DNA from: Lytechinus pictus
Taxonomy: Eukaryota
NCBI RefSeq assembly: GCF_037042905.1
Contig: NC_087246.1
Coordinates: forward strand, 55,800,001 to 55,864,000
Reading direction: 5' to 3'
Length of the DNA: 64,000 bases
In this document: positions 9,001 through 64,000 of the stretch, one piece after another
How the letters are laid out: the number at the start of each line of letters is the position of its first letter
Position numbering within the stretch: the stretch's first letter is position 1
Made by a program: the position numbers

Positions 9001-12000
9001 ATGCTTGTTATGATCATGCCATCAGGATAAGAGTAGGATTCAAAAGTGTTGGATGAGGTCTGAATTGAAAAGCTGCAAAACGAGCAAAAAAAGTTTGGAA
9101 ATCTGAGTTTGGCCATTAATTTCTCCCAATTCCCAATTTTACACAATGCATAATTGATATCATTCACAAGATCATTTAATTCTTTTCAAAATGATACCAT
9201 GCTTGTTATGATCATGCCATCACAAAAAGAGCAGGATTCAAAAGTGTTGGATGAGGTCTGAATTGAAAAGCTGCAAAACGAGCAGAAATAGTCATGAAGG
9301 GTCAATACAGAACATGATTCTTTTGTCTGTGTCAAGAGATGAAAATCCATTCAAATCAAGCCCCTGCTTCTTCATTTTTTATGTTTTGTTGTGGTTTATG
9401 TAGGGATGGTTCTGTGAGATAACATTGTTTTAGTCGTGGTTTGAAATACCCATGAATGTTTGTTTGTTATGTGTTTGCTCTGCAGAGGTGTGTTTGATTC
9501 CATGTTAATGTTGATGTTAAGGTGCATGAAAACAATTAAAAGAAACCACTGAGAAACTCACTCATCACAACAGAAAAAAGAACAGTGACTTTCAATATTG
9601 TGTCATTTTGCAACTTTTGAATTTTGACCTTGCCCCACATTTCAAGGCACTGCACCTTCATGTGAACCATAATCATATCATGTAGGGTATCATTTTAAAG
9701 AGAATTAAATGATCTATTCATTTATATTATTTACACATTGATATTTACTAAAACCGAGGAGGGATGATCAATCAAAGTCAGATTTCCAAACTTTTTTTGA
9801 GGAGTTTAGTTTCCACTAAACTAGTTTTGGGAAGGTAGTGAGAACAGTGTCTTTGGGACATTGTGCGAAGTGAAAACTTTAGTCTTCAAGGATAATTTCA
9901 TTCTCTTAGTGATCTTAACAAAGATGGTGTTGACTGTATTTATTATATCCATGTGATATGTTTGTTGTATTCACAATTCAGATGTGATTTGGTATCATTG
10001 ATGGCAGCGAAGGGGAGTATCTACATGTAGGGTCTACACATACGGTGTAGTTGTACAAGTATAATTCACCCCCAGAAATGTACAAGATAGCACTCGTAGT
10101 ATTTTGGTTGCCAAATGAATTAATATGAGGGGATTCAACATTTAGTTTGGATTGAAAAGAAGGAAAGAGAATGCCTGACAGAAATAATAATTTCTTTCCC
10201 ACCAATGAAAGCTGAAAGCAGAGCACTTCAATTCCTCAATCAGAGGAAAACTTTCACTTTAAGGGTTCAGGTAACAGTAACATTCATGGAGGTGTCATAA
10301 AACTGAGCATCTATATTCCATCTATTCAATTTTGAACAAAAGAAAAGCATATACCCCTTGTCAATAATTGGACACAAGTGCATAAACCACATCTAGCAAA
10401 ATATGCCTGTAAATTGAGTGTCAGTAATTTGTCCCTTTTTGTCACTAAAAGTGACAATTTGATTCTGCAACAGACGCTTGTTAACTCAGAGTAATGCAGC
10501 TACTTCTTGAACTCTTTTGACATCAAAAGAAAAAGTTAGAATTCACCCAGACAAGACTTATTCCACTCCTTAATAACGATATGGTTCACATCATCAGTGC
10601 CAATGCTTTAGACTTGCTTCCAATTATACAACTTGACAGCGACATTTTTTTTCACCCTTTCCTTTTCTTTTTCTCTTGTTCTCAGTGGGGATGATATGTA
10701 CAGTTTTTATTATCAAAAGGAAACCTCTGCAATAGGCAGATTCCCTCAAAGTGTGTTGCAGATAATTAATTTGACAGAATCCTCTGAAAGAAACATATTG
10801 TTTCATTCCACTTCACACCATTTAAATGAAAATCAGAGTGCTATGCACTTGGTTTTGATAAAGTGAAAAGTGTTGACATTCTACATGTAACATGAGACTT
10901 CCTGAAATGTTAAAGAGTACATTACAGTTTTAATGCAGATAAGAGTTTTAGTCAAAATGGTCCTAATCAAATAAAGGAAATAAATACAAGTGGTATCTAT
11001 GTAAACCAATAAACCAATTACTTCAAACATACAGATCTAATTTTGATTAAACATCATCACGATATAACAAACCCTGGATCAGGGAAAAAATTACACGAGG
11101 ACTGAGGGCGATATAAACCCAAAAATGCTCAAACGAGCCCTGGAAACTAACAAAATAAAAGGAGCACTAGAATCCGCATTCACTGCAACGTTAAAGCTTA
11201 TCCAATGTTGCACATTTAGGCAGTAAATTGTAAAACGTAGCCTCAAAAATAAGAAAATTAATTCTTTGCCTACCCTTCATACATAATTTATCTTTCCAGG
11301 AGACGGGGGGTCATATAGATGTTTATCTGAAATGCAACAAAAGGGAACATTCTATTTTGGGCCAATGATTCAATAATTGATAGAGTATGAAAAAAAAATG
11401 AAATTTGAAAAGAAGAAAATTATGAGATAAATTACCTTTTCTGTCTTGACTGTTGCCACTTCATTGATGAAATCTTTGAATTTCTGTCTATTCAGAACTG
11501 AAAGATAATACATAAAATAAAAAATTATATGTTGTGTTGAGTTAGCTGGAATACACAATCTGCATTTCAAAATATGGTTTTGCTACCAAAGAAAGATTCA
11601 TGCGTGCATTTCTTTAACATGTTCATTCCAGTAAATATTTGAATGGATGGCAATGATGAGGATGATAATGATCAAAATAATAATGATAAATATAACAAAG
11701 ATATAAACTAAAATATTATAAATGTATCTTCCACTGTTCTTTAAATTCTGAATCTATTATTTTTTAATGTAAGAGTATTCATTTCAAGCTCACAACATAT
11801 TTATACCTGTAGGTATATCTATATATGAAAGACATATGTGAAAATAATGCAAAGATGGTAATAAGCCAGTTCGTAGTTCCACTCTGCGCATGATCAGAAG
11901 ATGCTGCGCATGATCAGAGGAAGGTTATTTGTACTAAAGTGACATGGTGGTTTAAAAATTTAATGAGATAAGCACCATCTTTGATGTCTTGATCATTCAT

Positions 12001-62200: not shown

Positions 62201-64000
62201 GGCTTCTCACGAATGTACGAAGTGAAAATTTCCATATTATAATTCCACGTGATTCCTATTGAATAACACCGTTTAAATTCCATAATTATATCAAATCTAT
62301 TTCAGATACATAGGGGGAAGATGGATGTTGACTTATTAAGATTGTCATCTCATTTCATATTAAAGCTTATTTAATTTTCAACAATAAAAAAGTATAATGT
62401 CATATCATGACATGATTATCACCATGATCAAGTAAACTTATATTCTCTTTAGCCCTTTGCGCGCTGATGTTGCAATTTTGCACATTCGAACAATTGAATT
62501 TAACAATAAAAATTGTAATAATTAAATTTCTCATCTACATATATATTTAATAGAAGCTTAAAAATGACAATAGTTCTTGGATAACATCTATATAATAATC
62601 ATAAGTATCAATGGTGCAATGTGGAAATCTTGAATTAAAGAAAATAACATGAAAACAATGGTCATTATTATACCCCAAAATTAATTCAGAATGCAAAGAG
62701 TTAATATATACATTAAAAGTGAAACATAGCAGGGTTCTGACCAGCACGATCATGACAAATTTTTTTGTAACTTAAAAAAATATATTTTTCTTTAATGATT
62801 CCCAATAAAGTCCGTAATACGTATAAAAAATAACGTATAACTTGATATATTATTTACATGCAATGAAGACAGTTGTGAAACAAAAAAGACAAGGTTTTAA
62901 ACTTACGAATTTGACAGGATGTCGCTATTCAAGCCATTACATAAACGATCAGAATAAAGAGTAACTTTATGAGATCGACAAATGTTTGCCCCAAAAGTTT
63001 TACGGATGCTACGTGTTGTTTTTATTTTCTAACCTATATTGATATCAATAATAGAATCTCGAACTATGAAGTTCGGGGAATTCTCTTGATATGGACTTAC
63101 ACGTCATACAATATGCCCCTGACGACCAACATCTAAAGGTGTATCTCAAAATATTATTGTCCTCTGGAAAAACAAACAAGTAGTTGAAACGTAACGAAAC
63201 TAAATTACTTGATTTCACGATAAGTTTAATCTTCTGTCAGAATTAGTTTATAGTTCCGAATAGACTGCTGCACCCTTTTGATGACCTTTAATTCTTTCTT
63301 TGATCGCTTCGATATGAATACACTACTGGATTATAAAATTAATCGTTTTGTTCACAGCGTTGTTTGTATCTTAGAGGAAAAATGCCGATTTAAACGAATA
63401 ACGACGTAAATCGATTTAGGATTTCCGTTTTCGATTATGTGCTTTTTAATGTAATTGAAAACCCAAGGTAAAATTCTGTTCGGCCAAATAATGTTGATTA
63501 AATAGGATAGTTTAATTTCGAACAAAATCTAAATGAGATAATTCAACGTTTAAGAAACATATTAACGGGAAAGGAAATATAGGATTTTATCTGTATTGGA
63601 ATGTTACAATGATGAACTCAAGAAATGAACAATACCGACTATTATGTTTTTTTTCTCAGTAAGATTAATCTGTGTCATGTATTCGTATTTTTTTATGTCA
63701 AGAATACTGGAGCCGGTTTAGGAATTAAGAGCGGTATACGTCTTACAAGACACTGAAAACCAAAGTTATAGGAACCTAAAATCTGTATTTACACGACCCA
63801 AGAGATCTCCCACCAATTACAATAGAAATCGAGAAAGTTGTTTACATCAATATTGCATCGCTCGATCTACTCTCAATAAAGTAAATCTTATTTAAATCAC
63901 TTTTATTTCAATGTAACTTTCCTTTACATGCTATTTGTTGGCTATGGATAGGAGACGTTTGGCATGAGGCGAAAGGATTGATAAATTCATTAGGGAAAAG

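What the first reader, a model, noticed from the sequence alone, without database searches (positions are those of the whole stretch)
11436..64000. Probable part of the ancient Irx-Sowah genomic regulatory block
Seen: a Sowah gene with small exons, a 10-kb intron 1 and an intron 2 apparently longer than 11 kb, plus ~42 kb upstream with no recognisable CDS but many unique motif-rich blocks. Established: Sowah is the bystander gene linked to Iroquois genes across bilaterians, with Irx enhancers in and around it (Maeso et al. 2012, Genome Research). Inference: an Irx gene lies nearby and this desert is its cis-regulatory landscape. No Irx homeobox exon is visible in this window.
[Added by the scan's program, not by the reader: the finding's places include an assembly gap (unread letters, written N; its length is only estimated) at 51860 to 51998. 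Whether the letters on both sides are continuous or in frame is not known: test that first.]
Basis: partly seen in the sequence, partly recalled or inferred. Interest (0 to 1): 0.65.

Follow-up and report, generated by a model that had tools for sequence, protein, structure and literature searches.

The report
Possible Sowah gene start beside gene-free DNA
The window seems to hold the first two small exons of a gene, possibly Sowah, next to 42 kb with no recognisable genes, but neither the Sowah identity nor a link to an Iroquois gene could be shown with the tools at hand.

Summary
There is an ATG exon at 21650-21521 (130 coding nt) and a 62-nt exon at 11497-11436. Both have AAG|GTAATT donors, and intron 1 is 10,023 nt. 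No further exon was recognised in 1-11435, and 42.35 kb upstream holds no recognisable CDS (0 of 616 ORFs over a Pfam cut-off). The N gap (51860-51998) lies in low-complexity non-coding DNA, and no exon model crosses it.

The name Sowah was not confirmed. Searched exon by exon, Pfam gave 0 families at E<=10. The ESM Atlas gave no usable hit, and PDB sequence and fold searches gave only chance matches. The Sowah reading therefore rests on my recalled likeness to SOWAH N-termini.

New support for a transcription unit: CpG o/e is 0.54 in 1-21000 and 0.86 in 22001-64000, with matching TpG/CpA excess.

No Irx homeobox is in the window, and its flanks could not be reached. The Irx-Sowah reading is plausible and already published as a kind, but it is untested here. 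Interest is low.

The parts
21521..21650 (-). Putative first coding exon (ATG at 21650, 43 codons + 1 nt; peptide P0001)
   Evidence: The start context is aaacATGg and the donor is AAG|GTAATT (8 of 9). It is the only ATG-first-exon candidate on the minus strand by the criteria. AF2 single-sequence mean pLDDT is 81.3, against 63.7 for the antisense ORF of the same DNA.
21777..21782 (-). TATAAA 127-132 nt upstream of the ATG; a possible TATA box, weak evidence
   Evidence: The word occurs 100 times in the window against 101.8 expected by chance, so its presence here may be chance.
11498..21520 (-). Putative intron 1, 10,023 nt (GT...AG)
   Evidence: No Pfam hit over a cut-off in its ORFs. CpG o/e is 0.58.
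11436..11497 (-). Putative exon 2, 62 nt (phase 1 in, phase 0 out; peptide P0002 from its 20 whole codons)
   Evidence: Acceptor ...tctttcag| with 10 of 14 pyrimidines, donor AAG|GTAATT 8 of 9.
1..11435 (-). Start of putative intron 2 (longer than 11.4 kb, running off the window)
   Evidence: 0 of 101 minus-strand ORFs of at least 32 aa over a Pfam cut-off. No ankyrin motif apart from two loose matches that are the arms of an inverted repeat. CpG o/e is 0.53.
1..21000 (.). CpG-depleted block that coincides with the putative transcribed region
   Evidence: CpG o/e 0.54, TpG 1.23, CpA 1.24, against 0.86, 1.10 and 1.12 in 22001-64000. In 1-kb bins the median is 0.45 (n=21) against 0.82 (n=42), Mann-Whitney p=2.3e-5. 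Best change points fall at 19-20 kb or 28 kb.
21783..64000 (.). Upstream stretch without recognisable coding sequence
   Evidence: no ORF over a Pfam cut-off; no homeobox helix-3 motif; no Rfam family at gathering score, no tRNA. It holds MITE-like inverted repeats and tandem arrays.
51860..51998 (.). Assembly gap, 139 N, within the upstream stretch
   Evidence: Low-complexity flanks and no exon model across it. Left unfilled.

Best explanation
The window holds the 5' end of a multi-exon gene on the minus strand. It has two very small coding exons (130 and 62 nt) separated by a 10-kb intron and followed by an intron of more than 11.4 kb. The transcribed part is CpG-depleted, as expected for germline gene-body methylation in an invertebrate. 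The 42 kb upstream of the start is not depleted and carries no recognisable coding sequence. If the gene is Sowah, the published precedent makes it the bystander of an Iroquois regulatory block. Enhancers for an Irx gene would then sit in its large introns and in the upstream stretch, and the need to keep them next to the Irx promoter would hold the two genes together. From the head-to-head order in Drosophila, the Irx gene would be expected beyond coordinate 64000 on the + strand. Shown here: the exon and intron anatomy, the absence of recognisable CDS, and the CpG step. Inferred: the Sowah identity (from recall), methylation, an Irx neighbour, and any enhancer function.
For: Both donors match the consensus at 8 of 9 positions. 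Exon 1 is the only ATG-first-exon candidate on the minus strand, 1 of 4 in the window. The exon 1 peptide folds with mean pLDDT 81.3 into H10-19 and H26-41 without an alignment, against 63.7 for one control, the antisense ORF of the same DNA. The Atlas 'recognition' value is 2499, above the 2300 mark that 91 in 100 proteins of known families reach and 9 in 100 shuffled ones reach. CpG o/e is 0.54 against 0.86, with reciprocal TpG/CpA excess; Mann-Whitney p=2.3e-5 on 1-kb bins; the first 21 kb ranks 2nd lowest of 44 contiguous 21-kb blocks. 0 of 616 ORFs were over a Pfam cut-off. [quoted passage not shown] From recall, not from a call: the spacing of conserved residues in the two exon peptides resembles vertebrate SOWAH N-termini.
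Against: No tool names the gene. Pfam gave 0 families at E<=10 for the exon ORFs and for the exact exon peptides. The Atlas gave no usable hit. PDB phmmer gave one chance hit at E 0.51, and Foldseek against PDB gave one match at E 8.1. There are no ankyrin repeats in the window. There is no Irx homeobox in the window. Exon-like structures of this quality arise by chance: there are 3 more first-exon candidates on the + strand. TATAAA is at chance frequency. The CpG step is not sharp at the ATG: a change point at 28 kb scores as well as 19-20 kb, the bins are not independent, and methylation is only inferred. The fold control is a single sequence. The Irx-Sowah linkage was lost in several lineages.
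Confidence: 0.5

Rival explanations
1. The gene is a real Sowah, but in this animal it is not (or no longer) tied to Irx. The 42 kb upstream is ordinary intergenic DNA or the landscape of some other gene.
For: A review passage states that the Iroquois-Sowah association was disrupted in several lineages. No Irx exon is in the window. No conservation or chromatin data were available. The upstream stretch carries MITE-like repeats and tandem arrays like any intergenic DNA.
Against: Passages describe the linkage as kept in a wide range of bilaterians. The orientation, with the 5' end facing a long CDS-free stretch, matches Drosophila. Tiny exons with introns of 10 kb and more fit a bystander that hosts foreign enhancers.
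Confidence: 0.22
2. There is no gene here. The two 'exons' are chance open frames with chance splice-like sites, and the whole window is non-coding.
For: No database or profile match of any kind. Three comparable first-exon candidates occur on the + strand by chance. TATAAA is at chance frequency.
Against: pLDDT 81.3 against 63.7 for the antisense control. Atlas recognition above the 2300 mark. Frame closure of the two exons. The CpG-depleted block ends near the putative start. From recall: likeness to SOWAH N-termini.
Confidence: 0.15
3. The exons are real but belong to another gene family with a similar small helical N-terminal domain, not to Sowah.
For: Only 64 residues are seen. No ankyrin repeats are in the window. 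No SOWAH profile hit.
Against: From recall only: the residue pattern over both exons fits SOWAH N-termini closely. I know of no other family with it.
Confidence: 0.1

Closest known systems
Iroquois-Sowah genomic regulatory block (Maeso et al. 2012, Genome Res 22:642). The paper itself is not held; it is known here through passages in PMC5803294, PMC5585340, PMC12311624, PMC5010895 and PMC3342872.
   Same: A gene with very small 5' exons and large introns (10 kb and more than 11.4 kb). Its 5' end faces a long stretch without coding sequence, the same orientation as sowah and ara in Drosophila.
   Different: No Irx gene is in the window. No conserved non-coding elements or enhancer data could be tested. 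The Sowah identity is not shown by any search.
SOWAH / sosondowah ankyrin-repeat proteins
   Same: From recall only: the N-terminal residue pattern, spread over two exons. The exon 1 peptide is predicted as two helices with a short loop between them.
   Different: No ankyrin repeats were seen, though they may lie beyond coordinate 1. No Pfam, Atlas or PDB match.
Gene-body-methylated genes of invertebrates, recognised by low CpG o/e (established knowledge, recalled; no paper read here)
   Same: CpG o/e is 0.54 with TpG/CpA excess over the putative transcribed part, against 0.86 upstream.
   Different: Methylation was not measured. The boundary is blurred between about 19 and 28 kb.

Membership tests
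SOWAH (sosondowah) protein family | Conserved N-terminal SOWAH-type domain recognised by a profile | tested here: inconclusive
   Exon by exon, Pfam gave 0 families at E<=10 and the Atlas gave no usable hit. The pieces are 43 and 20 aa. I had no positive control that the library holds such a model.
SOWAH (sosondowah) protein family | Ankyrin repeats in the C-terminal part | tested here: inconclusive
   None in the window: the strict ankyrin motif gave 0 matches in six frames, and 0 of 101 downstream minus-strand ORFs gave an Ank hit. The gene runs off the window at coordinate 1, so the repeats may lie outside.
SOWAH (sosondowah) protein family | Multi-exon parental gene structure outside tetrapods (tetrapods keep intronless retrocopies) | tested here: met
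   Two exons with GT-AG introns of 10,023 nt and more than 11.4 kb. The retrogene statement comes from a passage in PMC5803294.
Irx-Sowah genomic regulatory block | An Iroquois (TALE homeobox) gene next to Sowah | tested here: inconclusive
   The helix-3 motif WF.N.R (a recalled motif) gave 0 matches in six frames. The one loose match, at 32501-32518, lies in an ORF with no Pfam hit. The scaffold beyond the window was not available.
Irx-Sowah genomic regulatory block | Conserved non-coding elements in Sowah introns and flanks that act as Irx enhancers | not testable with these tools
   No related eukaryotic genomes, chromatin data or contact data were on hand. The closed collections would not have served either.
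Gene-body methylated transcription unit | CpG depletion with TpG/CpA excess confined to the transcribed region | tested here: met
   The boundary is imprecise (19-28 kb), and methylation itself was not measured.

The most novel reading that the evidence does not exclude
The CpG step marks a germline methylation boundary at the bystander gene's 5' end. The gene's large introns would then be methylated gene body, and the 42-kb upstream stretch an unmethylated domain. If so, in this animal the Irx landscape would either have moved out of the Sowah introns into the upstream stretch, or its intronic enhancers would work from within methylated DNA. Either case would show how a bystander and its target share sequence while keeping different epigenetic states.
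Probability: 0.15. Interest if true: 0.4.

Novelty: already known. Interest (0 to 1): 0.2.

Why it matters
If the reading holds, this is one more copy of a published, deeply conserved gene pair, Iroquois with its bystander Sowah. It would be useful as an annotation and as a place to look for Irx enhancers in this species, but it is not a new kind of thing. The one addition from this work is the CpG contrast between the putative gene body and the upstream stretch, which gives a cheap sequence-only marker for where the transcription unit ends. The practical message for the scan is that a 64-residue N-terminal fragment split over two exons cannot be named with exon-wise profile searches, so such calls need the flanking scaffold or transcript data.

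Tried and rejected
I replaced it with lists of stop-free ORFs.
2. Pfam on the exon ORFs and on the exact exon peptides gave nothing.
3. The ESM Atlas gave no usable hit, once over all clusters and once over named clusters only. Searches did not complete because the machine was busy.
4. PDB by sequence gave one hit, ThreeFoil at E 0.51, which I take as chance.
5. Foldseek against PDB with the exon 1 model gave one match at E 8.1, not significant.
6. Rfam at gathering score gave 0 matches and the tRNA scan gave 0 genes, so there is no RNA gene and no clue to the organism.
7. The sigma-70 promoter and terminator scan around exon 1 is a bacterial model and not relevant to this eukaryotic sequence.
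8. A regex for a possible exon 3 pattern in 1-11435 gave two matches with no supporting context.
9. Weak Pfam rows, all under their cut-offs and at the level expected from 616 queries: PSI_PsaJ 0.019, Gp11_C 0.054, DUF6266 0.056, DUF747 0.055, Arif-1 0.095; OTT_1508_deam 0.0038; DUF2066 0.0019, BESS 0.0064; ABA_GPCR 0.0094, CutA1 0.005.
10. Maeso et al. 2012 could not be read by DOI or by PMC id.
11. Not scanned with Pfam: + strand ORFs under 55 aa in 1-11499, ORFs under 42 aa from 11500 onwards, ORFs under 32 aa anywhere, and frames that cross the gap.
12. Left unchecked because closed or absent: the search for homologous proteins, the search of protein representatives, metagenome contigs, viral contigs, any eukaryotic genome collection, and paper supplements (not asked for). 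The genome-contig scan (bacteria and archaea) was not used because it is irrelevant here.
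Full report
Scope and source. The window is 64,000 bases at about 36% G+C, with one run of 139 N at 51860-51998. I do not take it for human. CpG o/e upstream of the gene is 0.86. No Rfam family, SRP-related or other, reaches its gathering score. The gene model has large introns, whereas tetrapod Sowah genes are described as single-exon retrocopies (passage in PMC5803294). The organism could not be named, because no eukaryotic genome collection was on hand.

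The gap first. It lies 30 kb upstream of the putative gene start, in non-coding sequence. Its left flank is C/A-rich simple sequence and its right flank is TA/TG-rich. Only frames filled with N cross it, and no exon model depends on it. A BLAST of the right side (51999-64000) against the left found no shared repeat. The tetranucleotide correlation of the right side with left-hand segments is 0.91-0.955, close to the range among the left-hand segments themselves (0.92-0.95). So nothing argues against both sides belonging together, but continuity is not shown. The N run was not filled or looked up.

Anatomy.
- Exon 1 has an ATG at 21650 in the context aaacATGg. It has 43 codons plus one base up to 21521, followed by GTAATT.
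- Exon 2 is 62 nt, 11497-11436, behind ...tctttcag and before GTAATT.
- 130 + 62 = 192 nt, so the frame entered in phase 1 closes in phase 0 exactly at the finding's start coordinate.
- Intron 1 is 10,023 nt.
- Both donors match 8 of 9 consensus positions. The acceptor tract has 10 of 14 pyrimidines.
- A TATAAA lies 127-132 nt upstream of the ATG. That word occurs 100 times in the window against 101.8 expected, so it counts for little.

Is this more than chance? By structure alone, no. With the same criteria (ATG, at least 40 open codons, donor matching at least 8 of 9), the window gives four first-exon candidates. Three are on the + strand and one is on the minus strand, and the minus one is exon 1. 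Three other observations lean towards a real coding exon.
- The 43-residue peptide folds without an alignment at mean pLDDT 81.3, with helices at 10-19 and 26-41. The single control, the 43-residue antisense ORF of the same DNA, reaches 63.7.
- The Atlas 'recognition' value is 2499, above the 2300 mark that 91 in 100 proteins of known families reach and 9 in 100 shuffled ones reach. The tool itself warns that this does not show a gene is real.
- The CpG pattern, described two paragraphs below.

Is it Sowah? No tool says so.
- Pfam gave 0 families at E<=10 for the two stop-to-stop ORFs and for the exact exon peptides.
- The ESM Atlas gave no usable hit, over all clusters and over named clusters only.
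- phmmer against PDB chains gave one hit at E 0.51.
- Foldseek against PDB with the exon 1 model gave one match at E 8.1.
- Downstream, 0 of 101 minus-strand ORFs of at least 32 aa in 1-11500 reached a Pfam cut-off.
- A strict ankyrin motif is absent from all six frames. Two loose matches at 4376 and 4461 are the two arms of an inverted repeat.
I do not treat it as decisive. The pieces are 43 and 20 residues, and I had no positive control that the library holds a model of the SOWAH N-terminus. From recall, the spacing of conserved residues across both exons looks like vertebrate SOWAH N-termini. That is a lead and not a test. I put the Sowah identity at roughly two in three.

A new observation supports a transcription unit. 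CpG o/e is 0.53 in 1-11433 and 0.58 in intron 1, against 0.84 in 21800-51859 and 0.91 right of the gap. Over 1-21000 it is 0.54, with TpG 1.23 and CpA 1.24. Over 22001-64000 it is 0.86, with 1.10 and 1.12. That is the signature of CpG loss by deamination. In 1-kb bins the medians are 0.45 (n=21) and 0.82 (n=42), Mann-Whitney p=2.3e-5. The first 21 kb ranks second lowest of 44 contiguous 21-kb blocks. There are caveats. The bins are not independent. The best change points are 19-20 kb and, equally good, 28 kb, so the start of transcription could lie upstream of the ATG exon. That low CpG o/e marks germline gene-body methylation in invertebrates is recalled knowledge, and methylation was not measured here.

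The upstream stretch. From 21651 to 64000 (42,350 nt) I found no recognisable coding sequence. Over the whole window, 259 ORFs of at least 55 aa and 256 ORFs of 42-54 aa from 11500 onwards gave no family over its curated cut-off. With the 101, that makes 0 of 616. The weak rows (best E 0.0019) are at the level expected from that many queries. They are listed under Tried and rejected, together with the ORFs that were not scanned. The homeobox helix-3 motif WF.N.R (a recalled motif) has 0 matches in six frames. One loose match at 32501-32518 sits in an ORF without a Pfam hit. Rfam gave 0 families and the tRNA scan 0 genes. Intra-window repeats cover 8.3% of the window. They include MITE-like inverted repeats and tandem arrays, mostly at 28-32 kb. 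'Unique' therefore holds within the window. Uniqueness in the genome, conservation and 'motif-rich' could not be tested.

The Irx inference. What I could read:
- The Iroquois-Sowah linkage is described for Bilateria, with tetrapods as the exception (passages in PMC5803294 and PMC5585340).
- The large sowah introns in Drosophila house ara/caup enhancers (passages in PMC12311624).
- Seven amphioxus Irx-Sowah CNEs span about 150 kb of one scaffold (table passage in PMC5010895).
- The association was broken in several lineages (passage in PMC3342872).
- Maeso et al. 2012 itself is not held, and I saw none of its text.
The deficiency map in PMC12311624 implies the order 3'-sowah-5', CR43612, 5'-ara, that is, head to head. 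Here the putative 5' end faces the 42-kb CDS-free stretch. This gives a concrete prediction: an Irx gene beyond coordinate 64000 on the + strand.

Mechanism and rivals. My best reading (0.5) is a Sowah-type bystander gene whose tiny exons are spread by large introns. Beside it lies an unmethylated gene-free stretch, the whole being part of an Irx regulatory block held together by enhancers that must stay in cis with the Irx promoter. The rivals are:
- a real Sowah without an Irx link in this lineage (0.22);
- chance ORFs and no gene (0.15);
- another family with a similar small N-terminal domain (0.1).
Transcript data, a search of the flanking scaffold and a proper protein search would settle all four.

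Verdict. On the interpretation I cannot tell. Even if right, it is a further copy of a block already in print, so novelty is 'already known' and interest is low (0.2).

Noticed in passing
window 4343-4512: A near-perfect hairpin: 42-nt arms that are 100% complementary (4354-4395 and 4459-4500), with a 63-nt middle that is itself roughly palindromic, bracketed by runs of C. It looks like a foldback or MITE-like element inside putative intron 2. Its two arms produced the only loose 'ankyrin-like' regex matches.
   Followed up: partly
window 8472-8898 and 14584-15005: A dispersed repeat of about 530 nt in three collinear pieces (84-91% identical), with one copy in putative intron 2 and one in intron 1. 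Next to the first copy is a 198-nt unit repeated 2.1 times (8887-9292). No Pfam hit in its ORFs.
   Followed up: partly
window 28251-30391: A cluster of at least six copies of a unit built around the palindromic core GCGAGCGCGAAGCGCGAGC, including a 111-nt tandem array of 3.2 copies at 29409-29768. This cluster accounts for the local CpG o/e peak of 1.0-1.36.
   Followed up: no
window 44749-45267; related arms at 29936-30106, 39906-40432: A MITE-like family: an inverted repeat with 170-nt arms (82% complementary, 179 nt apart), and related arms at three other places in the upstream stretch.
   Followed up: no
window 22610-22651 and 36900-36941: A 42-nt word ending in a run of 12 C, present twice at 98% identity 14.3 kb apart. 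It is probably the end of an interspersed element.
   Followed up: no
window 55251-55561: An 11-nt tandem array (consensus CACAGTGTGTT) of about 29 copies, 77% matching.
   Followed up: no
window 35887-36042 (+): One of three chance-level first-exon candidates on the + strand: an ATG, 52 open codons and a donor AAT|GTAAGT. No Pfam hit for the enclosing ORF 35782-36108. I read it as chance, but I did not test it further.
   Followed up: partly
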